From Bacilli bacterium (GTDB lineage Bacteria > Bacillota_I > Bacilli_A > RF39 > UBA660), in the NCBI GenBank assembly GCA_017409785.1, contig JAFQSD010000004.1:48663-112662 (forward strand): DNA of 64,000 bases, given 5' to 3'. Position 1 is the stretch's first letter. The number at the start of each line of letters is the position of its first letter. The translations under genes and the position numbers were made by a program. The notes beneath the pieces were generated by a model. It ran no database searches. It worked only from the letters and a program-made list of their open reading frames with translations, and was not told where the DNA came from. Shown in pieces: positions 864-42,293 of the stretch.

Positions 864-877
864 AAATAGGTGATAAA

Positions 878-3078: not shown

Positions 3079-3086
3079 GTGCTAAA

Positions 3087-4043: not shown

Positions 4044-4045
4044 GG

Positions 4046-4078
4046 TTATAAATTAAAATTTATAGCCTTTTTTTGTTG
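4046..4078 (+). terminator. rho-independent terminator (weak, G-U containing stem)
   Basis: ggttataaa/tttatagcc stem followed by a T7 run. Confidence 0.4.
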
Positions 4079-4202
4079 AAAAATAAGCCAAAAGTTTTAC
4101 AAACATTTTTAGATATGTTAAAATTAAATTGTCTATTATCGATAATTCGTACAAAGGTAAAACTAAGATAATAGTTTTAAATTAGGGAAAGAGGTAGAAA
4201 AA

Positions 4203-5210: not shown

Positions 5211-5217
5211 GTGAAAT

Positions 5218-6318
5218 ATGAAAGTACTAATTACTGGTTCTAATGGATTTATTGGAAAAAACTTAAGAACACATTTACAAGAAAAAGAAAATATTGAAAT
5301 CATCACTTATGATATTGATGATACATTTGAAAAGATTGAAAAAAATATTGATGACATTGAATTTATCTTCCATCTTGCTGGAGTAAATCGTCCTCAAACA
5401 CCAGAAGAGTTCTATCAAGGAAACTCTGATCTTACAAAGAAAATAGTAGATTTAATAAAAGATAAAAATATTCCATTATTAGTAACATCAACTATTCATG
5501 CAGATAAAGACAATGATTATGGAAAAAGCAAGAAAATTGCCGAAGAATATATTAAAGAAAATCTAAAGAATTATTATATTTATAGACTACATAATGTATT
5601 TGGAAAATGGTGTAGACCAAACTACAATTCTGTAGTTGCAACTTTCTGTCATAATATTGCAAATGATTTAGAAATTACAATTAATGATGAATCAACTGCT
5701 CTAGACTTAATTTATATTGATGATATTTGCTATGAATTCGAAAGATTATTAGCAGGTGAGAAACCTGGAGAAAAAGTAAAAGGAATTTGCTATATTAATC
5801 CACGTTACAATGTAACACTTGGATATATTGCAAAAAGATTATATGAATTCAAAGATAGTATGAATTCAATTTATGTTCCAAATACTGGGGATGACTTTAC
5901 TAAAAAGTTATATTCAACATATATTAGTTATTTACCAATGGAGAAAACTTATTGTTCAGCAACAAAGAATGTTGATGAAAGAGGAAGCTTTACAGAATTA
6001 GTAAGAACTAATGAATGTGGACAATTCTCAGTTTCATTTAGTAAACCAGGAATAGTAAGAGGAAATCACTATCACCATACAAAACTAGAAAGATTTATTG
6101 TTATTAAAGGAAAAGCAAAAATTGGTTTTAGAAGTGTAGTAGATGGATCATATTATGAATTTATCGTTGATGATTCAGACATCAAAGTAGTAACAATTCC
6201 AGTAGGATACACACACAATATTGAAAATATTGGTGATGACGAAATGATTTTAGCAATCTGGTGTAATGAATTATTTGATAAAGAAAAACCAGACACATAC
6301 TTTAAACCAGTAGCATAA
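5218..6318 (+). CDS. fnlB: Cap5F/FnlB/WbjC-type reductase (SDR N-domain plus cupin C-domain)
   Basis: N-terminal MKVLITGSNGFIGKNL Rossmann motif, about 366 aa, with a C-terminal His-rich cupin-like segment (GNHYHH). Position between the fnlA-like and 2-epimerase genes matches the cap5EFG/wbjBCD gene order. Confidence 0.7.
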   Translation: MKVLITGSNGFIGKNLRTHLQEKENIEIITYDIDDTFEKIEKNIDDIEFIFHLAGVNRPQTPEEFYQGNSDLTKKIVDLIKDKNIPLLVTSTIHADKDNDYGKSKKIAEEYIKENLKNYYIYRLHNVFGKWCRPNYNSVVATFCHNIANDLEITINDESTALDLIYIDDICYEFERLLAGEKPGEKVKGICYINPRYNVTLGYIAKRLYEFKDSMNSIYVPNTGDDFTKKLYSTYISYLPMEKTYCSATKNVDERGSFTELVRTNECGQFSVSFSKPGIVRGNHYHHTKLERFIVIKGKAKIGFRSVVDGSYYEFIVDDSDIKVVTIPVGYTHNIENIGDDEMILAIWCNELFDKEKPDTYFKPVA

Positions 6319-6339
6319 CAGTAAAAAAGGAGAATGAAC

Positions 6340-7461
6340 ATGGAAAAATTAAAAGTAATGGTTGTTGTAGGAACAAGACCAGAAATTATCAGATTATCAG
6401 AAGTAATCAAAGCAATTGATAAGTATTTTAATCTAGTATTAGTTCATACAGGACAAAACTATGATTATACACTTAATGAAATTTTCTTTAAAGAATTTGG
6501 TTTAAGAAAACCAGATTATTATCTAGATGCTCCTGGTAAGCATTTAGGAGAAACAGTAGGAAATATTATTTCTAAAACTTATGAAGTTATTCAACAAGAA
6601 AAACCAGATGCATTATTAGTATTAGGAGATACAAATAGTTGTTTAGCAGCATATTCTGCAAAAAGATTAAAAGTACCTATATTCCATATGGAAGCTGGTA
6701 ACAGATGTTTTGACTTTAATGTTCCAGAAGAAATTAATAGAAGAGTAGTTGATCATGTAAGTGATGTTAACTTAGCTTACACAGAAAATGCTAGACGTTA
6801 CTTAATTAATGAAGGAATTAAAAATGACTTCTTATATGTAACTGGTTCACCAATGAAAGAAGTTTTATTCAAGAATATGGATGGAATCAAAGCTTCAACT
6901 GCTTTAAAAGACTTAGGAATTGAAAAAGGAAAATACTTTGTAGTAAGTGCTCACAGAGAAGAAAATGTTGATATTCCTAAAAACTTCGAAAGTTTAATGA
7001 ATAGTTTAAATAAAGTTGCAGAAACATATCAAATGCCAATTATTTTCTCAACACATCCAAGAACTGCAAAGAGAATCAAGGAAAGTAAAATTAAACTTAA
7101 TCCATTAATCAGAAACTTAGAACCACTTGGATTCTTTGATTATGTAAATCTTCAAATGAATGCATATTGCGTACTTTCAGATAGTGGAACAATTCCAGAA
7201 GAAAGCGACATTTTAAACTTCCCTGGTATTTCAATGAGAACAAGTACTGAAAGACCAGAAGCATTAGATGCTGGAAGTATTGTACTAGGTGGTATTAATG
7301 AAAGAGACATTCTAAATGCAATTGAACTAGCAGTAAATGCTAAAGAAGAAAGATCAGAAAACCTAGTTAGAGATTATAAAGATACAAACGTATCACTAAA
7401 AGTAGTTAAAATCATTCAAAGCTACTATAATATCGTAAATATCAGAACATGGAAAAAATAA
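6340..7461 (+). CDS. fnlC: UDP-N-acetylglucosamine 2-epimerase (non-hydrolysing; Cap5G/FnlC/WecB family)
   Basis: VMVVVGTRPEIIRLSEVI and DSGTIPEE motifs. The start was moved to ATG 6340 because RBS AAGGAG sits 7 nt upstream. Confidence 0.75.
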   Translation: MEKLKVMVVVGTRPEIIRLSEVIKAIDKYFNLVLVHTGQNYDYTLNEIFFKEFGLRKPDYYLDAPGKHLGETVGNIISKTYEVIQQEKPDALLVLGDTNSCLAAYSAKRLKVPIFHMEAGNRCFDFNVPEEINRRVVDHVSDVNLAYTENARRYLINEGIKNDFLYVTGSPMKEVLFKNMDGIKASTALKDLGIEKGKYFVVSAHREENVDIPKNFESLMNSLNKVAETYQMPIIFSTHPRTAKRIKESKIKLNPLIRNLEPLGFFDYVNLQMNAYCVLSDSGTIPEESDILNFPGISMRTSTERPEALDAGSIVLGGINERDILNAIELAVNAKEERSENLVRDYKDTNVSLKVVKIIQSYYNIVNIRTWKK

Positions 7462-7484
7462 ATACTAAATAAGCGAGGTACATT

Positions 7485-8534
7485 ATGGGAAAATTAAAAG
7501 ACATTGCAAGAAAAATAAAAAATAAAGTATTTTATGCAAGTAAACAAGACTTAATAGATTCAAATAAACAATACCATGACTATATAAAACTATTAGAAAG
7601 AAAGTTATGGGAAAATAATGTAAATACTAATATTCTACTTTATGAATTACATCTTGCAAAAGGTATAAAAAAAGAAAATTTTAACCCTTTAGTTTCAATA
7701 ATAATACCTGTTTATAATGGAAGTAATTATTTAGAAGAAGCAATTAATTGTGCTTTAAACCAAACATATAAAAATATAGAAATCATAGTTGTAAATGATG
7801 GAAGTACAGATGATGGTAAAAGTAGAAGAATTGCTAAGAAATATTCTAAACAAATAAAATATTATGAGAAAGAAAATGGCGGAGTATCAACCGCCTTAAA
7901 CTATGGAATAAAAAAGATGACAGGCGATTATTTCGCCTGGCTTTCTCATGATGATTTAATCGAACCTAATCACATTGAAAAATTAGTAGAATATGTTTCT
8001 ATCAAAGGAAATGAAAAAACTATTCCATATTCAGCTTTCAAAATAATTGATGAAAATGATGTTATTAGAATTGATGAAACTATGTCAGCACAATTACATT
8101 GTTTTGACTACAAAACATCACTTTTAAAAAATGACTATACATTATTAAAAGGAGAAATAAATGGAGGAAGTGTTTTAATTCCAAAAGAAGCATTTGATAA
8201 ACATGGTTTATTTGCAGAAGACCAACGTATAACACAAGAAAGAGATATGTGGTCAAGACTAATTACAGAATATAAATTTGTATGTATTCCATATGATACT
8301 GCTATGATTAGAACACACTCTCAACAAGTAACAAATACTAATCCCAGAATAAAGATAGAATCTGATCAAAAAAATCTAGAAATTATCAAAGGAATTTCAG
8401 ATGAAAGAATAAAAAAACTAGAAATGAATAAACAATCATTTTATCAAGTTCTAAAAGCTCATTATAAAGAAAATTGTAATTATGAAATGGCTGAAGAAAT
8501 TCAAAAATTAATAGATGAAACAACTAACAATTAA
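7485..8534 (+). CDS. family 2 glycosyltransferase
   Basis: VSIIIPVYNGSNYL...IEIIVVNDGSTDD and KENGGVSTALNYGIKKMTGDYFAWLSHDD. It is a paralogue of the first domain of the 10126 gene. Confidence 0.75.
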   Translation: MGKLKDIARKIKNKVFYASKQDLIDSNKQYHDYIKLLERKLWENNVNTNILLYELHLAKGIKKENFNPLVSIIIPVYNGSNYLEEAINCALNQTYKNIEIIVVNDGSTDDGKSRRIAKKYSKQIKYYEKENGGVSTALNYGIKKMTGDYFAWLSHDDLIEPNHIEKLVEYVSIKGNEKTIPYSAFKIIDENDVIRIDETMSAQLHCFDYKTSLLKNDYTLLKGEINGGSVLIPKEAFDKHGLFAEDQRITQERDMWSRLITEYKFVCIPYDTAMIRTHSQQVTNTNPRIKIESDQKNLEIIKGISDERIKKLEMNKQSFYQVLKAHYKENCNYEMAEEIQKLIDETTNN

Positions 8535-8548
8535 ATGGAGGGTTTGAC

Positions 8549-10117
8549 ATGAAAAAAATCAAGGTTCTTGAAGTAAATAACTACGACTTACCTGGAAAAA
8601 GATTTAATGGTTATGATATGATTCAAGATATTGCTGATGAGAATATTGATATAAAACAAGCAGTAATATATAAAGAATCAGATAATAAAAATGTCGTTAA
8701 AATTTTAAATAATCAGAATCATTACATTACTTATGAAACACTTGAAAGTGTTGAAAGAGAACAAGCAATTCATAATGTATTCTCAATTACAACACCATTA
8801 CTACATACAATGAAAGAATATCAAGAAGCAGATATCATTCATTTTCATATGTTTCATAATACAAAGTTATCAATATATGGATTAAAGAAAATTGCTTCAG
8901 AAAAGAAAGTTATTTTATCGATTCATGATCCATGGTTTTTAACAGGACGTTGTGTTCATTTTTATGAATGCAACAAATGGCAAAAAGGTTGTCAAAACTG
9001 CCATAATCTAAATAATATGTTTCCACTATTAAAAGATAATTGTTCCTCACTTTGGAACTTAAAAAAACAAACATTTGCTGATATAGATGTTGACTTAGTA
9101 TGCTCTAGTGATTGGATGCTAGATATGGTTAAATCTTCACCTATATTAAAAAATCAAACTAATCATAAAATTCCTCTAGGAATTGATTATAAAAAATTCT
9201 CATCAATTTCATATAAAGATGCAAGAAAAAAACTAGGTATTGAAGATGAAGAAATAGTTCTATTCTTCAGAGCGCAAAATGAATTTAAAGGAACCCCATA
9301 TATTGTAGAAGCAATGAAAATGCTAAATACAAAAAAGAAGATCACATTAATGACTTGTGATAATGAGGGATTAATAAATGATTTAGAAGGTAAATATAAA
9401 ATCATTGAATTAGGAAAACTAAAAGATAAAGAAATGATTTGTGCTATGAATGCCTGTGATATTTTCTTAATGCCTTCAATAGGAGAAAGTTTTGGTATGA
9501 TGGCTATTGAAGCTATGTCATGTGCTAAACCAGTAATTGTTTTTAATAATTCAGCATTACCTTCAGTAACACATGCACCAAAGTGTGGATATCTTGTAAA
9601 TGATAAAGATTCAACTGATTTAATGAAAGCCATTAAGTATTTATCAGAAAATGAAAAAGAAAGATTATCTCGTGGTAAGTTAGGTCAAAAAATTGTAAAA
9701 GAAGAATATGACATCAACGAGTATAATTCTAAAATAAAAGATTTATATATATCAGTTTCAAAAAGAAAACATAAAGTACCAGAACTACAAAAACTAACTG
9801 AGAATGATAATACAAATAAATTAAAAGCATACTTAAATAAATTAACAATCAGATTATTTGGTAATAATAAAAAAATAACAAAAGGTTTGCTTTATCAAAT
9901 TGATAAAACAAAATTAGATAAAGAACCAATCAAATATGATGATATAAATGTTCATATAATTCTAGAAGACTATATGACTAAATTAGAAAAAATAATAAAT
10001 ACAGAAAAAAACATCGTAAAGAGTAATAGCAAACTTAGAAGAATCGTCTTCTATCTAATACATGATAAACAAGCATTATTAGATAAGTTTTCACAAAGAT
10101 TTAAGAAGAAAGATTGA
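8549..10117 (+). CDS. GT-B fold glycosyltransferase (GT4-like)
   Basis: C-terminal EX7E-type motif IGESFGMMAIEAMSCAKPVIVFN, 522 aa. It also has an unusual Cys cluster, CVHFYECNKWQKGCQNCH. Confidence 0.65.
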   Translation: MKKIKVLEVNNYDLPGKRFNGYDMIQDIADENIDIKQAVIYKESDNKNVVKILNNQNHYITYETLESVEREQAIHNVFSITTPLLHTMKEYQEADIIHFHMFHNTKLSIYGLKKIASEKKVILSIHDPWFLTGRCVHFYECNKWQKGCQNCHNLNNMFPLLKDNCSSLWNLKKQTFADIDVDLVCSSDWMLDMVKSSPILKNQTNHKIPLGIDYKKFSSISYKDARKKLGIEDEEIVLFFRAQNEFKGTPYIVEAMKMLNTKKKITLMTCDNEGLINDLEGKYKIIELGKLKDKEMICAMNACDIFLMPSIGESFGMMAIEAMSCAKPVIVFNNSALPSVTHAPKCGYLVNDKDSTDLMKAIKYLSENEKERLSRGKLGQKIVKEEYDINEYNSKIKDLYISVSKRKHKVPELQKLTENDNTNKLKAYLNKLTIRLFGNNKKITKGLLYQIDKTKLDKEPIKYDDINVHIILEDYMTKLEKIINTEKNIVKSNSKLRRIVFYLIHDKQALLDKFSQRFKKKD

Positions 10118-10125
10118 GGTAAAGT

Positions 10126-11910
10126 ATGAGTACAAAAGTAACAATAATTATACCTGTATATAAAGGTAAAAAATATATGAGAGAAGCAATTGATAGTGCA
10201 CTTGCTCAAACTTATAAAAATCTAGAAATATTAGTTATTAATGATGGTAGTCCTGATAATGGTGCTACTGATAAAATAGCAAGATCTTATGGTGATAAAG
10301 TTCGCTATATTTATAAAGAAAATGGTGGAGTATCAACAGTACTTAACATGGCTTTAAAAGAAATGACAGGAGATTATTTCTCATGGCTTTCCCATGATGA
10401 TGTATATTATCCAGAAAAAATAGAAGAAGAAGTTAAGTATCTAGAAGAACATAACTTAGTTGGTAAGAAAGCCATACTATACTCAGATTACGATTTAATA
10501 GATAAAGATAGCATCTTAATTACAAAATCAATAAAACCACATAAAGAAACAGTTGAAAAACCAGAATATGCCTTATTAAGAGGACATATTAATGGAATAA
10601 CTTTATTAATTCCAAAAAGAGCATTTGATGAATGTGGAAACTTTGATGAAAAACTAAGATGTGCTCAAGATTATGAACTTTGGTATAGAATGATGAAAGC
10701 AGGATATGACTTTATTCATATTCCAAAAATATTAGCTAAATCAAGAGTTCATGAAAATCAAGTAACAAACACTAATCCAAAAGTAGAATCAGAAGGAAAT
10801 AAATTCTGGATTGATATTACAGATGATATTCCTTATGAAAGTAAAGTAAGACTTGAAGGTAGTGAATATAATTACTATAAAGAAATGGAAAAATTCTTAA
10901 GAGAAACTACATATAAAAAAGCAGCAGATCATTGCTTGAAAAAAACACATGAAATGGAAAAACAAGCAGAAAAACAAGTTCCAAAAACTAAAGTATCAGT
11001 AATTTTACCATTTTATAATAATATTGATTTAGTAGTTCGCTCAGTTAATTCAGTACTAGACCAAACACATAAAAACTATGAATTATTATTAATTAATAAT
11101 GGTTCAAAAGATGATATTAGTGAAATTGAAAATTTAATTAAGAAGAATAAACAAATTAAATTAATTAACCTTAAACAAAATAAAGGTGAATCTAATGCTA
11201 AAAATGTAGGTATTGATAATGCAAAAGGAGAATACATTGCATTCTTAGATTGTTATTCAGAATTTCTACCTACAAAACTAGAAGTTCAATTAAAACAAAT
11301 GCTAGCATCAAGTAGTAAAATAGGACATACGTCATACTATAAAACTACTTCAGACAAGAATGAAGTTATTAATACTGGTATAGAAAACGGTGATGTTGTT
11401 TCTAAAATTATTTGGTCATGTGAAATATCTCCATCAACAGTTATGGTTGATAGAAAATATATTGAAGAAAATAATATTCGCTTCGAAACAAAAAATGAAA
11501 CTGCAGGAGATGAATGTTTCTATCTAACAATTCTAGCAAATAATACATTATTAGGAATTGATGAAGCGCTATCAACAGTTCCTTCACAAAAAGAAGAACA
11601 AAGTACAGAAGAACAATTAGATAGACTAAAAAATATTATGCGTTTTGTTTTAAATAATTCAAAACTACAAAAGTATAACTATGAGTTAGCTGGTTTAGCA
11701 AATAATTATATTAAAACAGCAACAGCACTTTCAAAAGAAAATGCTGATGATGAAATTGGAGCATATATTGATAGCCCAACAAGTCAAAAAATAAAGAACT
11801 CTAAATTAGTTAAACTAACTAAAAGAACAATTTCTTCATTTAAAGATGATGGATTTAGAAGTACATTTAAAAAGATTCAAAGAAAAGTAAAAAATAAATT
11901 AAAAAAATAA
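10126..11910 (+). CDS. two-domain family 2 glycosyltransferase
   Basis: Two GT-A N-terminal signatures, VTIIIPVYKGKKYM...ILVINDGSPD and VSVILPFYNN...LLLINNGSKDD, each with a downstream DXD-like motif. Confidence 0.75.
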   Translation: MSTKVTIIIPVYKGKKYMREAIDSALAQTYKNLEILVINDGSPDNGATDKIARSYGDKVRYIYKENGGVSTVLNMALKEMTGDYFSWLSHDDVYYPEKIEEEVKYLEEHNLVGKKAILYSDYDLIDKDSILITKSIKPHKETVEKPEYALLRGHINGITLLIPKRAFDECGNFDEKLRCAQDYELWYRMMKAGYDFIHIPKILAKSRVHENQVTNTNPKVESEGNKFWIDITDDIPYESKVRLEGSEYNYYKEMEKFLRETTYKKAADHCLKKTHEMEKQAEKQVPKTKVSVILPFYNNIDLVVRSVNSVLDQTHKNYELLLINNGSKDDISEIENLIKKNKQIKLINLKQNKGESNAKNVGIDNAKGEYIAFLDCYSEFLPTKLEVQLKQMLASSSKIGHTSYYKTTSDKNEVINTGIENGDVVSKIIWSCEISPSTVMVDRKYIEENNIRFETKNETAGDECFYLTILANNTLLGIDEALSTVPSQKEEQSTEEQLDRLKNIMRFVLNNSKLQKYNYELAGLANNYIKTATALSKENADDEIGAYIDSPTSQKIKNSKLVKLTKRTISSFKDDGFRSTFKKIQRKVKNKLKK

Positions 11911-11919
11911 TACTATGTA

Positions 11920-11946
11920 AAAAAGTACTATTAAGTACTTTTTTAC
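11920..11946 (+). terminator. rho-independent terminator
   Basis: aaaagtact/agtactttt perfect stem with a 4-nt loop and a T-run. Confidence 0.55.
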
Positions 11947-11981
11947 TTGTAAAGTAAAGACCATATATATAGTAACTAAAT

Positions 11982-12019
11982 TAGTCAAATTGACTATAAC
12001 AAACACAATATGATATAAT
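11982..12019 (+). promoter_or_regulatory. sigma-A-type promoter with palindrome over the -35
   Basis: TAGTCAA-T-TTGACTA palindrome (11982-11996) containing TTGACT, then an 18-nt spacer and TATAAT (12014-12019). It lies upstream of the ABC permease. Confidence 0.35.
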
Positions 12020-12053
12020 CAACGAGAGAGAATTTATAAAGAGAGGTATTATA

Positions 12054-12866
12054 ATGACAGCAATAAAGAACATAATGGCTAACTTTAAAAAATATAAATT
12101 TTTGATGGGTCAATTAATATTAAGAGATTTTAAAATAAAATATAAGAGATCAGTTTTAGGAGTTGTTTGGAGTTTATTATATCCAATCCTAATGATGTCT
12201 GTAATGGCATTAGTTTTCTCAAATATGTTTAGATTTCAAGTTGAGGGAACAAGTTATTTAGTATATTTATTAACAGGAATTATTATGTTCCAATACTTTA
12301 GTGAAGCATCAAACTTAGCAATGACATCAGTAGTTTATAACTTCCCATTAATTAATAAAATATATATCCCTAAATATATTTTCCCATTAGCAAAATGTTT
12401 ATTCGTAGGTATTAACTTTGTATTATCATTAATACCATGGTTCTTAATAATAATATTAACTCAATTTGGATTAGGTAATTATCCAGCATCAATTAATTTA
12501 TATTATTTAATATTACCACTTATCTTTTTATGTTTATTACTATTCACAGTAGGAATGGGATTCTTCTTATCATGTGTATCAGTATTCTTAAGAGATGTAT
12601 TTTATATTTATGGAATTGTATTAACAATTTGGCAATATTTCACACCAATATTCTATAGTATTGAAATTATTCCAGCAAAACTACAATTCTTATTTGAATT
12701 TAATCCGTTATATCAATACTTAACTGCAACAAGATCAATAGTATTATATGGACAATGTCCATCTGCATTAAACTTAATTCTATGTGTAGTATATGCATTA
12801 ATCGCAATGCTAGTAGGTTGTATTGTATTTAAGAAAAATCAAGATAAATTCATTTACTATATTTAG
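12054..12866 (+). CDS. ABC-2 type polysaccharide/teichoic acid export permease (Wzm/TagG-like)
   Basis: 270 aa with 6 TM helices, immediately upstream of the cognate ATPase. Confidence 0.75.
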   Translation: MTAIKNIMANFKKYKFLMGQLILRDFKIKYKRSVLGVVWSLLYPILMMSVMALVFSNMFRFQVEGTSYLVYLLTGIIMFQYFSEASNLAMTSVVYNFPLINKIYIPKYIFPLAKCLFVGINFVLSLIPWFLIIILTQFGLGNYPASINLYYLILPLIFLCLLLFTVGMGFFLSCVSVFLRDVFYIYGIVLTIWQYFTPIFYSIEIIPAKLQFLFEFNPLYQYLTATRSIVLYGQCPSALNLILCVVYALIAMLVGCIVFKKNQDKFIYYI

Positions 12867-12881
12867 GAGAGGAGAAATAAT

Positions 12882-13619
12882 ATGATAAAATTAGAAAATA
12901 TTTCCATGAAATTTAATCTAGGAATTGAAAAGAATTATTCAATTAAAGAAGCATTTATTTCTATCTTCGATAAGAAACGTCGTCCAAAGAAAACAGACTT
13001 TTGGGCATTAAATGACGTATCATTTGAAATCAAACAAGGCGAAGTAATTGGACTAATTGGAAGTAACGGAGCTGGTAAAAGTACTCTATTAAAAGTAGTT
13101 AGTGGAGTTATGAAACCAACTAAAGGAAAAGTTACAGTAAATGGTCAAGTATCTCCAATGATTGAATTAGGAGCTGGATTTGACTTTGAACTAACAGCAA
13201 GAGAAAACATCTATTTAAATGGTGCCATTTTAGGATATTCAAAAAAATTCATTGATGAAAAATTTGATGAAATAGTTGAATTCTCTGAATTAAGAGATTT
13301 CTTAGATGCTCCTGTTAAAAACTTCTCATCAGGTATGATTGCAAAACTAGCATTCTCAATCGCAACAGTTGTTGATCCAGAAATCTTAATTGTTGATGAA
13401 ATTCTATCTGTAGGAGATATCAAATTCCAAGAAAAAAGTAAAAATAAAATGATGGAAATGATCAAAGGTGGAACAACAGTACTATACGTATCACACTCAT
13501 TAGAATCAATCGAAGAATTATGTGATAGAGTAGTATGGTTAGAACACGGTAAATTAATTAAGATTGGTAATACCAAAGAAATTTGTAAAGAATACTATAA
13601 AAAACAATTAAATAAATAA
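12882..13619 (+). CDS. ABC transporter ATP-binding protein (Wzt/TagH-like, short form)
   Basis: Walker A GSNGAGKST, signature LSSGM, Walker B ILIVDE. 245 aa, so it lacks a C-terminal glycan-binding domain. Confidence 0.85.
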   Translation: MIKLENISMKFNLGIEKNYSIKEAFISIFDKKRRPKKTDFWALNDVSFEIKQGEVIGLIGSNGAGKSTLLKVVSGVMKPTKGKVTVNGQVSPMIELGAGFDFELTARENIYLNGAILGYSKKFIDEKFDEIVEFSELRDFLDAPVKNFSSGMIAKLAFSIATVVDPEILIVDEILSVGDIKFQEKSKNKMMEMIKGGTTVLYVSHSLESIEELCDRVVWLEHGKLIKIGNTKEICKEYYKKQLNK

Positions 13620-17758: not shown

Positions 17759-17877
17759 ATCAACGGACTTACCATATGCTGATGAATAGACAATTTGGAC
17801 GATAATTTATATTTTTAGGTAAGAAAAATATATCTATTCGGGAATACTTTGCGAAAGCAAGGTATTCCCTTTTTTTT
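17759..17877 (+). ncRNA. candidate small RNA (about 120 nt) between promoter and terminator
   Basis: Promoter at 17725-17752, an internal hairpin tcatca..tgatga, and a strong terminator. It has no ORF with an RBS. Confidence 0.25.
17840..17877 (+). terminator. strong rho-independent terminator (13-bp stem, GAAA tetraloop, T8)
   Basis: gggaatactttgc GAAA gcaaggtattccc tttttttt. Confidence 0.75.
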
Positions 17878-17965: not shown

Positions 17966-18901
17966 ATGAAAAATGAAATAATAATATTTGAAGATCAAAA
18001 TGTAAAATTAGAAGTAAATATGAAAGATGAGACAGTATGGTTAAACCAAGAACAAATTAGCATACTTTTTGGTAAGGCAAAATCAACTATAAATGAACAT
18101 ATAAAAAATATTTATAGTGAAGGAGAATTGATAGAAGAAGAAACGTTAAGTAAATTCGGAAATTCCGAATTAAGCACTAAACCAACAAATTATTACAATT
18201 TAGATGTAATTATAAGTGTAGGCTATAGAGTAAAGTCACAACGAGGAATCGCATTTAGAAAATGGGCAACAAAAGTATTAAAAGATTACATGATGAAAGG
18301 ATATGCAGTAAATAAACAACGACTTGAGTATCTAGAAAAAACAGTTAAATTAATAGATATTGCCAATAGAATGGATGATAGGCTAGAAAGTAATGAAGCT
18401 AAAGAAATACTAAGAGTAATTGGTACTTATTCTAAAGCCCTTAATGTCTTAGATGATTATGATCATCGTACTTTACAAAAGTTAAAAGGGAAAAATAGTA
18501 ATCTAAGAATAGAATATAATGAATGTTTAGAGGTAATAAACAAATTACGTTTTAACGAAGAAAGTGATTTATTTGCCTTAGAAAAAAATAAAGGACTTGA
18601 ATCTATAATCAACAATATTTATCAAACTTTTGGTGGACAAGAAGTATATCCATCCATAGAGGAAAAAGCTGCTAATTTTATTTATATGATAGTAAAAAAC
18701 CATGTTTTTATTGATGGAAATAAACGTATAGCAGCAACACTATTTATATATTTTCTACAATTCTATAACATACTTTATATAAATGAAAAACAAGTCATTG
18801 ATAATAATACATTAGTTGCTTTAACACTTTTAATAGCAGAATCAAATCCAAAAGAAAAAGATATAATAGTTGATTTAATAATGAACTTCCTTACAAATTA
18901 A
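17966..18901 (+). CDS. RhuM-family protein with C-terminal Doc/Fic domain
   Basis: The N-terminal region matches the RhuM virulence-protein family. The C-terminal region carries the Doc-type motif HVFIDGNKR. Confidence 0.6.
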   Translation: MKNEIIIFEDQNVKLEVNMKDETVWLNQEQISILFGKAKSTINEHIKNIYSEGELIEEETLSKFGNSELSTKPTNYYNLDVIISVGYRVKSQRGIAFRKWATKVLKDYMMKGYAVNKQRLEYLEKTVKLIDIANRMDDRLESNEAKEILRVIGTYSKALNVLDDYDHRTLQKLKGKNSNLRIEYNECLEVINKLRFNEESDLFALEKNKGLESIINNIYQTFGGQEVYPSIEEKAANFIYMIVKNHVFIDGNKRIAATLFIYFLQFYNILYINEKQVIDNNTLVALTLLIAESNPKEKDIIVDLIMNFLTN

Positions 18902-18972
18902 AAAGAATAGTTTAGTTTTACCAATATTTTTGATATAATTAATTTGAATTATTTTAAAGGTAGGCGAACGAT

Positions 18973-20637
18973 ATGAAATACGATATTTGTGTCTTTGGAG
19001 GATGTGCTCTAGACCAATTTTATTATAAAAGTGAAAAGGGAGAAATCCCAGAATGTCCATCTCTAGTTTTACCAGGTGGAAAAGGTTCTAACCAAGCAGT
19101 AGCAGCAGCTCGTGCAGGAGCTAAAGTTACAATGGTTAGTCGTTTAGGAAAAGATTCAATTGGCCAAAGAATATTAGAAAACCTTGTATACAACAACATT
19201 ACTACAAATAATATTGAAGTAGTAGATGGTTTAAGTAATGATTATGCCAAAATTGTTATTGATGAAAAGACTAAAGATAATGATATTGAAAGATTTGCAG
19301 GAGCAATAGATAGTTTTACTCCAGATATCATTGATCGATATAAAAAAGTATTTCTTCAATCAAAAATGATAGTTGCACAACTAAAAGTACCAAAAGAAGT
19401 AAGTGTTGAATTAATTAACTTCTGCTTTGACAATAATGTCCCATTAATATTAACTCCTTGTCGTCCACAAAGATTAGTAATATCTGAACCAGGAAATAAG
19501 GATTTACTTGATAAGATTACATACATAACTGCTAATAAAAAAGAATGTGAAACAATTTTTGAAACAACAGATATCGATTCTTGTCTAGCAATGTATCCTA
19601 ATAAATTAATCGTAACATTAGGTCCTGATGGAGTAGCATATCATGATGGAGAGAAAGTGGTTAGAATTCCTGCTATTGAAGTTGATAGAGTAGAAGATAC
19701 AACAGGAGCAGGAGATACATTTAATGGAAACTTTGCGGCATCTTTAATTAAAGGATATACAATTTATGAATCAGTAGTAAAAGCTCAATACGCATCAAGT
19801 ATGAAAATTAGAGTAAAAGGTGCTCAAGATGGAATGCCTTATGAAGAAGAATTAGAAAAATACATGATGAATTATTATCTTGATGATCATAATTACACAA
19901 GAGAATTTGATCTAGCATATAATGCTATCGAAGATGCAACATCAACTATTAATAAAAAGAATTTAGTAAAAATTAAATTCCGCGAAAAAGCAGATTCAAC
20001 ATTCGTTACAGAATCAGACCTAATCGTTGAAAAATTATTAATTGACCATATTAGAGATAGTTTCCCTGATGACAATTTTGTTACAGAAGAATTCAATAAC
20101 GAAAATGCAATTCAAAATCGTACATGGATAATTGATCCGATTGATGGAACTGCTCACTATATGAAAAAGTCAATTTTCTGGGGAATTCAATTAGCATTTG
20201 TAGATAAAGGAGAAATTCAATTCTCAATTATGTATTTACCAAAATTAGATGAAATGTTTTATGCAATAAAAGGTAAAGGTGCATATCTAAATCATAAAAA
20301 GATTAACTTGGGAAATACAGTACCACTAAATCAAAGTACAATTGAATTCTGTGGTTCTTGTCATAAAAAGTTCTATGAAAAACAACGTATTTTTGAAAAG
20401 TTATTAAATAACCCAGTTCATCCAGCAAACTTTATGCATATTAACGCATGTTGTTTTGCTTTCTCAAACCTTTTAACAGGAAGAACAAATACTCTTGTGT
20501 TATCTACAACAAAACCATGGGATATTATTCCAGGTGTATTTATGACACAAGAAGCAGGATTAAAACAATTCTCAATTACTGGATTAACTGTATATTCGAA
20601 TACAGAAGATATTGAAAAATTCATTTTAGAAGACTAA
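18973..20637 (+). CDS. fusion protein: PfkB/ribokinase-family sugar kinase plus inositol-monophosphatase (FIG) fold phosphatase domain
   Basis: N-terminal half has GGKGSNQA and DTTGAGDTFNG (ribokinase signatures). C-terminal half has WIIDPIDGT and a WD..G motif (IMPase/CysQ family). Confidence 0.7.
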   Translation: MKYDICVFGGCALDQFYYKSEKGEIPECPSLVLPGGKGSNQAVAAARAGAKVTMVSRLGKDSIGQRILENLVYNNITTNNIEVVDGLSNDYAKIVIDEKTKDNDIERFAGAIDSFTPDIIDRYKKVFLQSKMIVAQLKVPKEVSVELINFCFDNNVPLILTPCRPQRLVISEPGNKDLLDKITYITANKKECETIFETTDIDSCLAMYPNKLIVTLGPDGVAYHDGEKVVRIPAIEVDRVEDTTGAGDTFNGNFAASLIKGYTIYESVVKAQYASSMKIRVKGAQDGMPYEEELEKYMMNYYLDDHNYTREFDLAYNAIEDATSTINKKNLVKIKFREKADSTFVTESDLIVEKLLIDHIRDSFPDDNFVTEEFNNENAIQNRTWIIDPIDGTAHYMKKSIFWGIQLAFVDKGEIQFSIMYLPKLDEMFYAIKGKGAYLNHKKINLGNTVPLNQSTIEFCGSCHKKFYEKQRIFEKLLNNPVHPANFMHINACCFAFSNLLTGRTNTLVLSTTKPWDIIPGVFMTQEAGLKQFSITGLTVYSNTEDIEKFILED

Positions 20638-20653: not shown

Positions 20654-22474
20654 ATGAAAAAATATATCAATGAAGACTTAATTAAAATATTAATAAGTAT
20701 AATCTTATTTATAGTTTCCTTATTTATTGAGGCTGCAGAAGTAAACTTAGCATTACTCGCAATTTCATATGCTATCATAAGTACTGGAATATATATAAAT
20801 GCTTATCACCACGTAAAGAAAAAAATATTCTTTGATGAAAACTTGCTTATGATTATTGCCACACTATGTGCTTTTGCCATCGGTAGTAATGAAGAAGCAG
20901 TAATGGTTATGTTATTATTCCATATTGGAGAATATTTATCTGATTTGGCAGTAAATAACAGTAAAAAATCAATTACAAAATTAATGGACTTAAGAGTAGA
21001 AAAAGCAAATAAATTAATAAATGGTGAAATAGTAGAAGTAGATATTAAAAAAGTTGAAGAAGATGATTTATTACTTGTTAAGCCAGGAGAAAAAATACCA
21101 TTAGATGGTATTGTAATAGAAGGAGAGTCACATCTAGATACATCATCATTAACAGGAGAATCAAAACCAAGAAAAGTATCAATTAATGATAAAGTCATAA
21201 GTGGTTGTATAAATAAAGATAATATTCTAACTATTAAAGCAACATCTACGTATAAAACATCAACAGCATCTAAAATAATAGATATTATTGAAAAATCTTC
21301 TTCTAAGAAAGCTGAAACAGAAAAATTTATTACAAAGTTTTCTAAGGTGTACACACCTATAATAGTTGTATGTGCAATACTTCTTGTAGTAATTCCAACA
21401 CTTCTTGGACAAGAATTTAATACATGGTTATATAGAGCCTTAGTATTCTTAGTAACTTCTTGTCCATGTGCTTTAGTAATTTCTATTCCTCTAGCATATT
21501 TTTGTGGAATAGGTAAGGCATCACGTGAAGGAATATTAATAAAAGGTAGTAAAGAATTAGAAAACTTAGAAAACCTAGATTACATAATTTTTGATAAAAC
21601 AGGTACAATAACAGAAGGCGTGTTCGAAGTAACAGAAATCTATACAGTAGATATAAAAGAAAATAAATTACTTCAAATTGCTGCTTCTGCCGAAGAATAT
21701 TCACTTCATCCAATTGCAACTGCAATAAAAGAAAAAAATGAATCTAAACTTTTACCAGTAGAAAAATATAAAGAAATTAGTGGTAAAGGAATATCCTGCG
21801 AAGTAGATGGAAAAAAAGTATTAATTGGTAATGAACAATTATTAAAAGATAATAAAGTAATGACTCTACCAGTTTCAGAAAACTCATCAATTGTTCATAT
21901 CGCAATTGATAAAGAATATGCAGGATATATTGTAATATCTGATAAAGTTAAGAAGAGTAGTTCACATATTATAAAACTATTAAAATATATAAATAAAGAT
22001 TTAGTAATACTATCTGGAGATATCGAATCAACTGTTAAAAAAGTTGCCAAAAAAGTAGGTATTAATAATTACTTCGCATCACTTCTTCCAGAAGATAAAG
22101 TAAACAAAGTAAAAGAATACAAGAAAGAAGGAAAAGTTCTTTTTGTAGGTGATGGAGTAAATGATGCTCCTGTATTAAAAATATCTGACATTGGTGTATC
22201 TATGGGACAAGTTGGTAGTGATGCTGCAATTGAAGCAAGTGATATGGTTATCATGAAAGATGACTTATCTAAAATAGAAACTGCAATTAAAATCGCAGCT
22301 TATACCAAAAAGAAAGTTAAGCAAACAATGACTTTTGCACTACTAATAAAATTTGTAATATTAATACTTGGTGCTTATGGAATAAGTACTATCTGGATGG
22401 CAGTATTTGCCGATGTAGGAGTAACATTCCTATGTATTTTAAACGTTCTAACTATCATGTGGAAAAAATTTTAA
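20654..22474 (+). CDS. P1B-type heavy-metal translocating P-type ATPase (no N-terminal HMA domain)
   Basis: CPC in a TM helix (SCPCALV), DKTGTIT phosphorylation motif, GDGVNDAP; 606 aa. Confidence 0.8.
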   Translation: MKKYINEDLIKILISIILFIVSLFIEAAEVNLALLAISYAIISTGIYINAYHHVKKKIFFDENLLMIIATLCAFAIGSNEEAVMVMLLFHIGEYLSDLAVNNSKKSITKLMDLRVEKANKLINGEIVEVDIKKVEEDDLLLVKPGEKIPLDGIVIEGESHLDTSSLTGESKPRKVSINDKVISGCINKDNILTIKATSTYKTSTASKIIDIIEKSSSKKAETEKFITKFSKVYTPIIVVCAILLVVIPTLLGQEFNTWLYRALVFLVTSCPCALVISIPLAYFCGIGKASREGILIKGSKELENLENLDYIIFDKTGTITEGVFEVTEIYTVDIKENKLLQIAASAEEYSLHPIATAIKEKNESKLLPVEKYKEISGKGISCEVDGKKVLIGNEQLLKDNKVMTLPVSENSSIVHIAIDKEYAGYIVISDKVKKSSSHIIKLLKYINKDLVILSGDIESTVKKVAKKVGINNYFASLLPEDKVNKVKEYKKEGKVLFVGDGVNDAPVLKISDIGVSMGQVGSDAAIEASDMVIMKDDLSKIETAIKIAAYTKKKVKQTMTFALLIKFVILILGAYGISTIWMAVFADVGVTFLCILNVLTIMWKKF

Positions 22475-40947: not shown

Positions 40948-40948
40948 T

Positions 40949-41695: not shown

Positions 41696-41725
41696 GAAGA
41701 TAGATTTCTATCTTCTTTTTTTTGT
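41694..41725 (+). terminator. rho-independent terminator
   Basis: gaagataga ttt ctatcttc followed by a T9 run. Confidence 0.65.
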
Positions 41726-41801
41726 AAAAAATCTGTCCAATACAAAATTTAGTCTCCATAAATTTTTATTTAATGTTATAATCAAACTATGAGGTGATCG
41801 T

Positions 41802-42200: not shown

Positions 42201-42293
42201 ATTGTCTTTTTTTGCTGCATACAGGGGAAAGGAGAATAAGTGTAAAACTGTATACAATTAGTAAATAAAAATAATAAAAATATAGGAGTAAAT

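What the first reader, a model, noticed from the sequence alone, without database searches (positions are those of the whole stretch)
18973..20637. Single polypeptide fusing a ribokinase-family kinase to an inositol-monophosphatase-fold phosphatase
Seen: residues 1 to about 300 have the ribokinase signatures GGKGSNQA and DTTGAGDTFNG. Residues from about 320 to 554 have the IMPase/CysQ/FBPase (FIG) fold signatures, namely an EE metal site, WIIDPIDGT and a C-terminal WD..G. Established: both are common stand-alone enzymes. A kinase and a phosphomonoesterase acting in one chain suggests a phosphorylate, rearrange or transfer, then dephosphorylate route, as used in some sugar-nucleotide and compatible-solute pathways, or a futile-cycle control element. 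Inference only: the substrate cannot be read from the sequence. It sits between a Doc/Fic-type protein and a metal ATPase, with no obvious pathway partners.
Basis: partly seen in the sequence, partly recalled or inferred. Interest (0 to 1): 0.5.

Follow-up and report, generated by a model that had tools for sequence, protein, structure and literature searches.

The report
Ribokinase-like kinase fused to phosphatase
This is a real, recurrent and so far unnamed two-enzyme protein of uncultured gut Bacilli, in which a remodelled ribokinase-type kinase is joined to an inositol-monophosphatase-type phosphatase, probably to add one phosphate to a ribose-type sugar phosphate and remove another.

Summary
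Window 18973-20637 (+) is one uninterrupted 554-aa ORF with a PfkB/ribokinase domain (residues 4-289, E 3e-47) and an IMPase-fold domain (312-536, E 1e-34).

It is not an assembly artefact. The identical protein is on 8 independent contigs. 187 full-length homologues (38-100% identity) keep every catalytic residue of both halves in at least 98% of sequences.

NCBI names it only 'hypothetical protein [Bacilli bacterium]'. No curated family reaches its cutoff, and no paper describing it was found.

The kinase is not an ordinary ribokinase. Its clade keeps the catalytic residues and most ribose ligands. It replaces ribose ligands Asn14 and Glu143 and lid residue Ile112 with Ala/Ser, Lys138 and Arg107. 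Lys138 and Arg107 align with two residues of the sulfonate-binding triad of sulfofructose kinase YihV, which implies an anionic group on the sugar.

The same kinase clade occurs alone, fused to IMPase, and fused to an unrelated PHP phosphoesterase. This supports functional coupling of kinase and phosphatase. Gene neighbourhoods are not conserved.

Best inference (about 0.3): alpha-(deoxy)ribose-1-phosphate is converted to the 1,5-bisphosphate and then to the 5-phosphate. The substrate remains untested.

The parts
18931..18939 (+). Extended -10-like element TGATATAAT, 34 nt upstream of the start codon. It is a possible own promoter.
   Evidence: Read directly from the sequence. The consensus scan did not list it because it has no -35 partner. 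It is not evidence of function.
18959..18964 (+). Shine-Dalgarno-like GGTAGG, 8 nt before the ATG
   Evidence: Sequence reading
18973..20637 (+). Complete 554-aa ORF of the kinase-phosphatase fusion protein (= NCBI MBQ2910500.1)
   Evidence: 187 full-length homologues were found.
18982..19839 (+). PfkB/ribokinase-fold kinase domain (residues 4-289)
19012..19014 (+). Asp14, the counterpart of RbsK Asp16 (a ribose ligand). It is conserved.
   Evidence: 186/187. The ligand list is from PMC9604405.
19075..19098 (+). GGKGSNQA motif (residues 35-42), containing the counterparts of RbsK ribose ligands Gly42, Lys43 and Asn46
19237..19242 (+). Asn89-Asp90, a clade signature that replaces Thr/Ser-Gly of canonical ribokinases in a lid strand
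   Evidence: 186/187 conserved.
19291..19293 (+). Arg107, a clade signature at the position of RbsK Ile112. It aligns with YihV Asn109 of the sulfonate triad.
   Evidence: 186/187 conserved. The YihV triad is from PMC8006165.
19384..19386 (+). Lys138, a clade signature at the position of the RbsK ribose ligand Glu143. It aligns with YihV Arg138 of the sulfonate triad.
   Evidence: HMMER alignment to 1gqt.. 187/187 conserved.
19453..19467 (+). TPCRP (residues 161-165), a clade signature that replaces NPAPA of canonical ribokinases. It adds Arg164.
   Evidence: Arg164 is conserved in 184/187.
19696..19731 (+). DTTGAGDTFNGN (residues 242-253): the anion hole and catalytic base Asp248 (RbsK Asp255). 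Asn253 is clade-specific.
19843..19959 (+). Inter-domain linker, residues 291-329, predicted as two helices. Tyr308 and Glu311 are conserved.
   Evidence: AF2 model: helices 291-302 and 309-329, pLDDT about 83-93. Alignment A1.
19906..20580 (+). Inositol-monophosphatase-fold phosphatase domain (residues 312-536). The fold continues to the C-terminus at 20634.
20086..20091 (+). Glu372-Glu373 metal-site motif
   Evidence: Conserved in 185 and 184 of 187
20125..20151 (+). WIIDPIDGT (residues 385-393), the metal-binding and catalytic motif
   Evidence: Asp388 186/187, Asp391 187/187, Thr393 186/187
20518..20535 (+). WD(I/V)xPG (residues 516-521). It holds the third metal-binding Asp517. Pro520-Gly521 replace the usual Ala-Ala-Gly.

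Best explanation
The gene encodes a bifunctional enzyme in which both halves are catalytically active and work on one metabolite pool.

The N-terminal half belongs to a separate clade of ribokinase-like kinases. It still binds a ribofuranose and phosphorylates its 5-OH. The pocket end that holds the anomeric position in ribokinase is rebuilt with Lys138, Arg107 and usually Arg164, so it should accept a negatively charged substituent there. The most likely substrate is alpha-D-ribose-1-phosphate or 2-deoxyribose-1-phosphate, the products of nucleoside phosphorylases. The kinase would make (deoxy)ribose-1,5-bisphosphate.

The C-terminal Mg-dependent IMPase/FBPase-type domain would then remove the 1-phosphate to give (deoxy)ribose-5-phosphate. 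The net effect is an ATP-driven, irreversible relocation of the phosphate, that is, a bypass of phosphopentomutase.

Shown: the fusion is real and recurrent; the catalytic residues of both halves are conserved; the pocket signature is specific to the clade; the signature residues align with the YihV anion pocket; the kinase has been fused to phosphatases of two different folds.

Inferred: the identity of the substrate, the order of the two reactions, and which phosphate is removed.

Confidence is about 0.65 for 'coupled kinase and phosphatase acting on an anionic ribofuranosyl substrate'. It is about 0.3 for the specific ribose-1-phosphate route. The figure given below is for the specific route.
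For: (1) The fusion is real and under selection. The exact protein is on 8 contigs. 187 full-length homologues at 38-100% identity keep all kinase and phosphatase catalytic residues in at least 98% of sequences.

(2) The kinase half has the ribokinase fold. It keeps the counterparts of RbsK ligands Asp16, Gly42, Lys43, Asn46 and Asp255. It replaces ligands Asn14 and Glu143 and lid residue Ile112 with Ala/Ser, Lys138 and Arg107. The ligand list is from PMC9604405.

(4) The same kinase clade is fused to a different phosphoesterase fold, PHP. Its best models are RNase AM and 3',5'-nucleoside-bisphosphate phosphatase, and its metal ligands are intact. These PHP fusions sit at two or more tree positions. 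One protein has the reverse order, IMPase then a degenerate kinase. Repeated fusion to phosphatases argues for a shared pathway.

(5) The IMPase half is closest to the dual IMPase/FBPase TM1415. That enzyme type removes the 1-phosphate from a furanose bisphosphate.

(6) A bacterial ribose-1-phosphate kinase has been postulated but never identified (PMC9700705).

(7) Weak context hints: a pyrimidine-nucleoside phosphorylase gene lies 3-7 kb from the fusion gene in L083 and L090; DeoC lies nearby in L177; pyrB-pyrI follow a stand-alone kinase in L119-121.
Against: No biochemical data exist. The gene neighbourhood is not conserved, and nucleoside phosphorylase is near in only 2 of about 15 distinct contexts.

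The clade has no special sequence affinity to the archaeal ribose-1-phosphate kinases. Canonical ribokinases score higher against those models (105-121 bits) than this clade does (50-65 bits).

Genuine stand-alone kinases and one fusion with a degenerate IMPase half (P0150) show that the phosphatase is dispensable in some lineages.

A kinase plus phosphatase costs one ATP for a step that phosphopentomutase performs for free. Whether these genomes lack deoB could not be checked.

The PHP partners do not clearly keep the 5'-phosphate cavity of RNase AM.
Confidence: 0.3

Rival explanations
1. Antagonistic pair or homeostat. The two halves add and remove a phosphate on the same compound, and so set the level of a phosphorylated ribosyl metabolite such as ribose-1,5-bisphosphate. 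This would work like eukaryotic PFK-2/FBPase-2 or the archaeal NADP phosphatase/NAD kinase MJ0917.
For: A kinase fused to an IMPase-fold phosphatase with opposing activities has a known precedent: NCBIfam NF010678 'bifunctional NADP phosphatase/NAD kinase' and Kawai et al. 2005, as cited in PMC4518329. Variants in which one half is degenerate (P0150, P0189) fit a regulatory or structural role for the partner domain. The lack of operon partners fits a stand-alone control element.
Against: Both active sites are strictly conserved in 187 homologues, which would impose a constant ATP drain unless the enzyme is regulated. IMPase-family enzymes are not known as 5-phosphatases of ribose phosphates (my own knowledge). 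No regulatory domain or motif was found.
Confidence: 0.15
2. Salvage of RNA-breakdown nucleotides. The kinase phosphorylates the 5'-OH of nucleoside 3'(2')-monophosphates to nucleoside 3',5'-bisphosphates. The phosphatase then removes the 3'(2')-phosphate, CysQ-like, to give 5'-NMP.
For: Both partner folds have members that are 3',5'-bisphosphate nucleotidases. CysQ belongs to the IMPase superfamily (74 bits here). NF041577/Cv1693-type enzymes belong to the PHP family (88-94 bits for the PHP partners; PMC9410882). An aromatic residue aligns with the base-stacking Phe161 of RNase AM. Nucleotide-related neighbours appear in some loci: NT5C, guanylate kinase, PnuC and NUDIX.
Against: The counterpart of RbsK Asp16 (Asp14) is invariant, and it would repel a 3'-phosphate if Asp16 binds the 2'/3'-hydroxyls as I recall. 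The changed residues sit at the far end of the furanose, not at the 3' position. The hydrophobic lid residues that cover the ring in RbsK (Ala98, Ile100, Ile110; PMC9604405) are kept, which leaves little room for a base. The IMPase half is nearer to IMPase/FBPase/SuhB than to CysQ.
Confidence: 0.12
3. Ordinary ribokinase joined to an unrelated housekeeping IMPase/SuhB-type phosphatase. The fusion only co-expresses two independent activities.
For: The best family hits are ribokinase (206 bits) and IMPase/HisN/SuhB types. IMG labels relatives 'ribokinase' or 'myo-inositol monophosphatase'. The kinase also occurs alone.
Against: The score is below the ribokinase equivalog cutoff (206 against 299.65), whereas canonical ribokinases reach 325-361. 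The ribose ligand Glu143 is conserved in E. coli RbsK, in 25 generic ribokinases and in Leishmania ribokinase, but it is Lys in all 187 members. There is no rbs transporter context. Repeated independent fusion of this kinase clade to two phosphatase folds is hard to explain without coupling.
Confidence: 0.1
4. Phosphofructokinase plus fructose-1,6-bisphosphatase in one chain. The kinase would phosphorylate fructose-6-phosphate, or another hexulose phosphate or sulfosugar, at O1. The IMPase/FBPase-type half would reverse or regulate that step.
For: The anion sub-pocket positions are those used by sulfofructose kinase. The IMPase half is closest to the dual IMPase/FBPase TM1415. The reverse-order relative P0189 scores best on the archaeal FBPase/IMPase model (145 bits).
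Confidence: 0.06
5. Inositol route: a myo-inositol kinase plus an inositol monophosphatase.
Confidence: 0.03
6. Artefact: two adjacent genes joined by a frameshift or an assembly error.
For: One related locus (L177) shows the opposite error, a fusion gene split by a frameshift. So sequencing errors do occur in this family.
Against: The identical 554-aa protein is on 8 independent contigs. 187 full-length homologues have a conserved structured linker.
Confidence: 0.01

Closest known systems
Bacterial ribokinase RbsK (EC 2.7.1.15; PDB 1RKD; NCBIfam TIGR02152)
   Different: It falls below the equivalog cutoff (206 against 299.65 bits). The ribose ligands Asn14 and Glu143 and the lid residue Ile112 are replaced by Ala/Ser, Lys and Arg. 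NPAPA becomes TPCRP. There is no rbs operon. It is fused to a phosphatase.
Sulfofructose kinase YihV (PDB 7AG6)
   Different: Identity is only about 21%. YihV lacks the ribokinase GGKGxNQA motif and uses an in-trans Lys27. It acts on a hexulose, sits in the yih sulfoglycolysis operon and is not fused to a phosphatase.
Archaeal ribose-1-phosphate kinases (TK2029, Pcal_0041, Halxa_1682; NCBIfam NF041134, NF053626) of the pentose bisphosphate pathways
   Same: They are PfkB-family kinases that phosphorylate the 5-OH of a ribose already carrying a 1-phosphate. They work in pathways that also include a dedicated phosphatase. This is the proposed chemistry here.
   Different: There is no specific sequence relationship: 50-57 bits, lower than ordinary ribokinases score. 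The archaeal pathway continues through R15P isomerase, not through a fused phosphatase.
T. maritima TM1415 and archaeal MJ0109-type dual IMPase/FBPase (PDB 2P3N)
   Different: Identity is about 26%. The protein has WDxxPG in place of WDxAAG. Its substrate is unknown. It is fused to a kinase.
MJ0917 NADP phosphatase/NAD kinase (NCBIfam NF010678)
   Same: It is one chain combining an IMPase-fold phosphatase with a kinase acting on the same metabolite family.
   Different: The kinase fold differs (NAD kinase, not PfkB). The domain order is phosphatase first. The two activities are directly opposed on NAD(P).
ADP-heptose pathway HldE/HldA kinase plus GmhB phosphatase
   Same: A PfkB kinase makes a sugar bisphosphate, and a phosphatase then removes the other phosphate. 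This 'phosphate relocation' logic is the one proposed here.
   Different: The phosphatase is a HAD-family enzyme and a separate protein. The substrate is a heptose. HldE is fused to a nucleotidyltransferase instead.

Membership tests
Ribokinase (NCBIfam TIGR02152 / NF008353 equivalogs) | Whole-protein score at or above the curated cutoff | tested here: not met
   206.3 bits against 299.65, and 146.9 against 341. The controls pass: E. coli RbsK scores 360.8 and 553.1, and a generic metagenomic ribokinase scores 325.1 on TIGR02152.
Ribokinase (NCBIfam TIGR02152 / NF008353 equivalogs) | PfkB fold with the GGKGxNQA and DTxGAGD motifs and the catalytic Asp | tested here: met
Ribokinase (NCBIfam TIGR02152 / NF008353 equivalogs) | Full set of ribose ligands: Asn14, Asp16, Gly42, Lys43, Asn46, Glu143, Asp255 (PMC9604405) | tested here: not met
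   Asp16, Gly42, Lys43, Asn46 and Asp255 are kept. Asn14 is Ala/Ser. Glu143 is Lys138 in 187/187.
Ribokinase (NCBIfam TIGR02152 / NF008353 equivalogs) | Phosphorylates free D-ribose | not testable with these tools
   This needs an enzyme assay.
Inositol monophosphatase / SuhB (Pfam PF00459; NCBIfam NF008027) | IMPase fold with the EE, DPxDGT and WD metal-binding motifs | tested here: met
Inositol monophosphatase / SuhB (Pfam PF00459; NCBIfam NF008027) | Equivalog score cutoff | tested here: not met
   82.4 bits against 332
Inositol monophosphatase / SuhB (Pfam PF00459; NCBIfam NF008027) | Acidic inositol-binding residue (human Glu213; the Glu of SuhB 'FFEIG') | tested here: not met
   The HMMER alignment to SuhB-type chains puts Leu510 opposite that Glu. 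The role of Glu213 is from my own knowledge.
CysQ 3'(2'),5'-bisphosphate nucleotidase (TIGR01331) | Equivalog score cutoff | tested here: not met
   74.1 bits against 228.8. The PDB CysQ chain 3b8b matches only at 1.8e-07.
Histidinol-phosphatase HisN (TIGR02067) | Equivalog score cutoff | tested here: not met
   114.2 bits against 275.15. This is the best IMPase-type model but far below its cutoff.
Archaeal ribose-1-phosphate kinases (NF041134, NF053626) | Equivalog score cutoff, and a closer match than that of ordinary ribokinases | tested here: not met
   50.5 and 56.7 bits against cutoffs of 500 and 330. Ordinary ribokinases score 85-121 bits. This lowers 'it is one of them', not 'it works like them'.
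Sulfofructose kinase YihV family | K27(in trans)-N109-R138 sulfonate triad and the yih operon context (PMC8006165) | tested here: inconclusive
   Positions 109 and 138 are occupied by Arg107 and Lys138. The in-trans Lys could not be mapped. No sulfoglycolysis genes are nearby.
Bifunctional NADP phosphatase/NAD kinase (NF010678) | NAD kinase domain joined to an IMPase-fold domain | tested here: not met
   There is no NAD_kinase domain in the fusion protein. This model is not among the 25 NCBIfam families shown for the fusion protein (27 matched).
Anti-phage defence proteins (PADLOC-DB) | Match to any defence-system model | tested here: not met
   No hit for the fusion protein or for P0152. Only the upstream RhuM/Fic neighbour matches (PDC-S23).

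The most novel reading that the evidence does not exclude
This clade would be the long-postulated bacterial ribose-1-phosphate kinase. Fused to an IMPase-type or PHP-type phosphatase, it would form a previously undescribed two-step 'phosphate-walk' from (d)ribose-1-P through the 1,5-bisphosphate to (d)ribose-5-P. That route would replace phosphopentomutase in nucleoside use by uncultured gut Bacilli. The stand-alone kinases would supply ribose-1,5-bisphosphate for other uses. The gene would spread in part as cargo of serine-recombinase cassettes.
Probability: 0.3. Interest if true: 0.7.

Novelty: new variant of a known kind. Interest (0 to 1): 0.52.

Why it matters
Both folds are textbook enzymes, but this architecture has no name, no curated family and no literature. 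It nevertheless recurs in at least 187 sequence variants from animal-gut metagenomes.

The clade-specific remodelling of the ribokinase sugar pocket gives a concrete and cheaply testable substrate prediction. If the ribose-1-phosphate reading is right, it would identify a bacterial ribose-1-phosphate kinase, which has been postulated but never found. It would also add a new way of feeding nucleoside-derived pentose into metabolism, and it would correct the 'ribokinase' and 'inositol monophosphatase' labels that pipelines give these genes.

Even if that reading is wrong, one result stands. The same kinase has been fused to two unrelated phosphatase folds. That is a clean 'Rosetta-stone' case pointing to an unknown kinase-phosphatase pathway in poorly understood gut Bacilli.

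Tried and rejected
(1) The genome-contig scan with the full alignment was swamped by ordinary ribokinases through the PGGK[GA][AS]NQA pattern. It returned no fusion member. No GTDB taxonomy beyond 'Bacilli bacterium' / 'Bacillota bacterium' was obtained.

(2) I looked for a conserved operon partner in 11 exact-protein look-ups and 80 metagenome loci. None was found. Recurrent neighbours are housekeeping genes (SecA, UvrB, RpoD, Alr, RecX, PrsA foldase) or are specific to one lineage.

(3) I considered a cell-wall ribofuranose idea: a PMT/ArnT-type GT-C next to the gene in L086 and L088, a polysaccharide cluster in the window, and a PRPP-synthetase-like gene 22 kb away. I dropped it because the association holds in only 2 contexts and no UbiA-type phosphoribosyltransferase was seen.

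(4) I considered an NAD/nicotinamide-riboside idea (PnuC in L091, an NrtR-like NUDIX in the window). These are single occurrences, so I dropped it.

(5) Membership in the archaeal ribose-1-phosphate kinase families was tested and rejected.

(6) A defence-system affiliation was tested and rejected for the fusion protein itself.

(7) The 'stand-alone kinase followed by a separate IMPase gene' in L177 turned out to be a frameshifted fusion gene. The other stand-alone loci were re-verified with tblastn.

(8) The 5'-phosphate cavity of RNase AM was not confirmed in the PHP partners.

Pocket geometry and the distance between the two active sites could not be measured. The afdb50 library was unavailable.
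Full report
**1. Observation**

Window 18973-20637 (+) is a single uninterrupted ORF of 554 codons. Pfam places a PfkB carbohydrate-kinase domain at residues 4-289 (E 3.2e-47) and an Inositol_P domain at 312-536 (E 9.7e-35).

The junction (residues 291-329) is clean in-frame sequence. The AlphaFold2 model, built on 30 homologues, predicts it as two helices. That model has mean pLDDT 91.9 and pTM 0.82.

The exact protein is encoded on 8 independent contigs from ENA and Logan assemblies. It equals NCBI MBQ2910500.1, 'hypothetical protein [Bacilli bacterium]'. A first database search returned 120 clusters of full-length two-domain homologues. A frameshift or assembly join is therefore excluded.

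**2. Surroundings**

The region has about 27% G+C. Upstream lie FemAB, a TSCPD protein and a RhuM+Fic protein at 17966-18901. Downstream lie a P1B-type heavy-metal ATPase at 20654-22474, a GH25 muramidase and a YlmH-like protein.

The gene has an extended -10-like TGATATAAT (18931-18939) and a GGTAGG ribosome-binding site. No terminator-like site separates it from the flanking genes; the only strong one lies at 17840-17869.

The rest of the window holds a surface-polysaccharide cluster (1-13.6 kb), TrkAH, AdhE, a divergent PRPP-synthetase-like gene (42294-43433), and tRNA synthetases. No nucleoside phosphorylase, pentomutase, rbs transporter or inositol gene was found among the ORFs that were scanned.

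**3. Contexts elsewhere**

Eleven exact-protein look-ups and 80 metagenome loci were examined. There is no conserved operon. The gene is often flanked by oppositely oriented or unrelated housekeeping genes.

Recurrent but lineage-limited neighbours are:
- a PBP5-type carboxypeptidase, VanY and a pyrimidine-nucleoside phosphorylase (L083, L090, L095, L099, L108);
- SecA with ComF and RecD2 (L091, L110, L111);
- a PMT-type glycosyltransferase (L086, L088).

In L083 and L095 the PBP5 gene is split exactly at codon 216 by a 3.2-kb insert. The insert consists of a small ORF, the fusion gene and a serine recombinase. In L092 a serine recombinase also follows the fusion gene. The gene can therefore travel as cassette cargo, which may explain the scrambled contexts.

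**4. The kinase half is a distinct clade, not a plain ribokinase**

A column-by-column comparison with E. coli RbsK and 25 generic ribokinases gives a sharp signature (E. coli numbering):

| RbsK position | Canonical ribokinases | This clade |
|---|---|---|
| 14 | Asn (Ser) | Ala/Ser |
| 95-96 | Thr/Ser-Gly | Asn89-Asp90 |
| 112 | Ile/Val | Arg107 |
| 143 | Glu | Lys138 |
| 166-170 | NPAPA | TPCRP (with Arg164) |
| 260 | Ala | Asn253 |
| 285 | Ala/Ser | Lys278 |

Asp16, Gly42, Lys43, Asn46, the NxxE motif, the GAGD anion hole and the catalytic Asp255 are all kept. The Glu143-to-Lys138 and Ile112-to-Arg107 correspondences also appear in the HMMER alignment to 1gqt. In the 187 homologues, Lys138 is invariant and Arg107, Asn89 and Asp90 are each 186/187.

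The published ribose ligands of RbsK are Asn14, Asp16, Gly42, Lys43, Asn46, Glu143 and Asp255 (PMC9604405). From my recollection of the 1RKD structure, Asn14 and Glu143 contact O1 of bound alpha-ribofuranose. This was not verified here.

**5. Meaning of the signature**

E. coli sulfofructose kinase YihV binds the sulfonate of its substrate with Lys27 (in trans), Asn109 and Arg138. It holds the ring hydroxyls with Asp13, which the alignment places opposite RbsK Asp16 (PMC8006165).

The two new basic residues therefore occupy an established anion sub-pocket, at the end of the furanose opposite the acceptor hydroxyl. For a ribofuranose phosphorylated at O5, that end is C1. By my own inference, C1-O-PO3 of alpha-ribose-1-phosphate is isosteric with C5-CH2-SO3 of beta-sulfofructose when the acceptor CH2OH groups are superposed. 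The lid residues that cover the ring in RbsK (Ala98, Ile100, Ile110; PMC9604405) are retained, which argues against a bulky base on that face.

This mapping rests on sequence alignment at about 20-25% identity.

**6. The phosphatase half**

No curated equivalog is reached:

| Model | Score (bits) | Cutoff (bits) |
|---|---|---|
| HisN | 114 | 275 |
| SuhB/IMPase | 82 | 332 |
| CysQ | 74 | 229 |
| FBPase/IMPase | 61 | 264 |

The residue aligned with the Glu of SuhB 'FFEIG' is Leu510. The usual WDxAAG motif is WDxxPG here.

**7. Evidence that the two halves are coupled**

An exhaustive HMMER search of 1.84 billion representatives shows that the IMPase-fused family is compact, with only a few 50%-identity clusters. 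The nearest other kinases carrying the signature include proteins of 603-617 aa whose C-terminal half is a PHP domain (P0152, P0159, P0165; P0298).

Those PHP domains match best to RNase AM and to 3',5'-nucleoside-bisphosphate phosphatase (88-101 bits), and less well to phosphoribosyl-cyclic-phosphate diphosphodiesterase. All are below the cutoffs. They keep the RNase AM metal ligands (PMC9410882), but not clearly its 5'-phosphate cavity.

A neighbour-joining tree of kinase domains has no support values. It puts all Lys138 kinases in one clade apart from ribokinases. The IMPase fusions form the crown, with stand-alone forms interspersed. The PHP fusions sit at two or more basal positions.

Other variants:
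- P0189 has the reverse order, an active-looking IMPase followed by a degenerate kinase.
- P0150 is a fusion whose IMPase half has lost the EE and DPIDGT motifs.
- Nineteen metagenome loci carry genuine stand-alone kinases, with no IMPase coding in any frame.
- L097 and L098 retain only a stub of the IMPase half.
- L177 is a frameshifted fusion gene.

Repeated fusion of one kinase clade to two unrelated phosphatase folds is the strongest argument that kinase and phosphatase act in one pathway. The losses show that the phosphatase can be supplied otherwise or dispensed with.

**8. Mechanism**

My best-supported reading is that the kinase adds a 5-phosphate to a ribofuranose that already carries an anionic group at C1. 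The most likely substrate is alpha-(deoxy)ribose-1-phosphate from nucleoside phosphorolysis. The phosphatase then removes the 1-phosphate, giving (deoxy)ribose-5-phosphate.

Both partner folds contain enzymes that strip a non-5 phosphate from a 5-phosphorylated furanose: FBPase and CysQ in the IMPase superfamily, and Cv1693 and the cyclic-phosphate dihydrolase in the PHP family. A bacterial ribose-1-phosphate kinase has been postulated for the R5P to R1P to R15P to PRPP bypass but is unidentified (PMC9700705).

Against this reading:
- There is no sequence affinity to the archaeal R1P kinases.
- There is no conserved linkage to nucleoside phosphorylases.
- The route costs ATP.
- There is no biochemistry.

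I put about 0.65 on 'coupled kinase plus phosphatase on an anionic ribofuranosyl substrate' and about 0.3 on the specific ribose-1-phosphate route. The rivals are:

| Rival | Confidence |
|---|---|
| Antagonistic homeostat, like PFK-2/FBPase-2 or MJ0917 | 0.15 |
| 3'(2')-NMP to pNp to 5'-NMP salvage | 0.12 |
| Plain ribokinase plus an unrelated IMPase | 0.10 |
| PFK plus FBPase | 0.06 |
| Inositol kinase plus IMPase | 0.03 |
| Artefact | 0.01 |

**9. Comparison with what is known, and novelty**

The protein works like known kinase/phosphatase pairs that relocate or balance a phosphate: HldE plus GmhB, MJ0917, PFK-2/FBPase-2, and the archaeal pentose bisphosphate pathways. It is not a member of any curated family tested; the membership table gives the details.

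Four literature searches found no description of a PfkB-IMPase or PfkB-PHP fusion, or of a bacterial R1P kinase/R15P phosphatase. The library searched covers open-access papers only, so an unindexed report cannot be excluded.

I rate it a new variant of a known kind. It is a solid, testable enzymology lead and not a categorically new system.

Noticed in passing
L083:6620-11011 (also L084, L085) and L095:53-4474: A PBP5-type D-Ala-D-Ala carboxypeptidase gene is split exactly at codon 216. The two fragments match residues 1-216 and 216-383 of the intact orthologue in L090. The split is caused by a 3.2-kb insert carrying a small membrane ORF, the kinase-IMPase fusion gene and a 268-aa serine recombinase. 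It resembles a small 'skin-like' intervening element or mobile cassette. L092 also has a serine recombinase right after the fusion gene.
   Followed up: partly
window 17966-18901 (+): The RhuM+Fic/Doc protein directly upstream is a full-length match (399 bits) to the PADLOC candidate defence family PDC-S23. A homologue also lies about 6 kb from the fusion gene in L083.
   Followed up: partly
P0150 (566 aa) and P0189 (523 aa), from the representative search: Decayed variants of the architecture. P0150 keeps the kinase, but its IMPase half has lost the EE and DPIDGT motifs. P0189 has the reverse order, with an intact IMPase/FBPase-like domain followed by a PfkB domain. That PfkB domain lacks GGKGxN and DTTGAGD but keeps YPNKLI, QxK and ND.
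   Followed up: partly
L115, L116, L117 (stand-alone kinase loci) and L092:13441-14241: A 263-266-aa ADP-ribosyltransferase-like protein (Pfam ADPrib_exo_Tox in L092) sits immediately upstream of the stand-alone kinase in three loci. It lies 4 kb from the fusion gene in L092. It has no PADLOC hit.
   Followed up: no
L119, L120, L121: A stand-alone kinase of this clade (342 aa) lies directly upstream of, and on the same strand as, aspartate carbamoyltransferase genes. These were identified as pyrB and pyrI from their sequence motifs. This is a possible link to pyrimidine metabolism.
   Followed up: no
window 19804-19806 (Lys278): The clade has an invariant Lys where RbsK has Ala285. From my recollection, that residue is part of the monovalent-cation site next to the anion hole. 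The Lys might replace the activating K+ ion. This is speculation.
   Followed up: no
window 1-13619: A surface-polysaccharide gene cluster. It holds an O-antigen-ligase-like protein, several GT2 and one GT4 glycosyltransferases, a Polysacc_synt_2 dehydratase (4203-5210), a Polysacc_synt_C protein (5218-6318), a UDP-GlcNAc 2-epimerase (6334-7461) and an ABC-2 exporter (12054-13619).
   Followed up: no
window 40925-43433: An APH-family small-molecule kinase (40925-41695) lies about 0.6 kb upstream of a divergent PRPP-synthetase-like protein (42294-43433; Pribosyltran_N only 51 bits), with a short unannotated ORF (41802-42200) between them. The function is unclear. There is no PADLOC hit for the Prs-like protein.
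   Followed up: no
window 46424-49354 (+): A 976-aa ORF with no Pfam match at E 1e-4. It is followed by a 229-aa ORF that also has no match.
   Followed up: no
L177:8001-9643: A fusion-gene homologue (about 60% identity) is interrupted by a single frameshift at about residue 338. Gene callers report it as a 333-aa 'kinase' plus a 181-aa 'IMPase'. This is a caution for counting stand-alone forms.
   Followed up: yes
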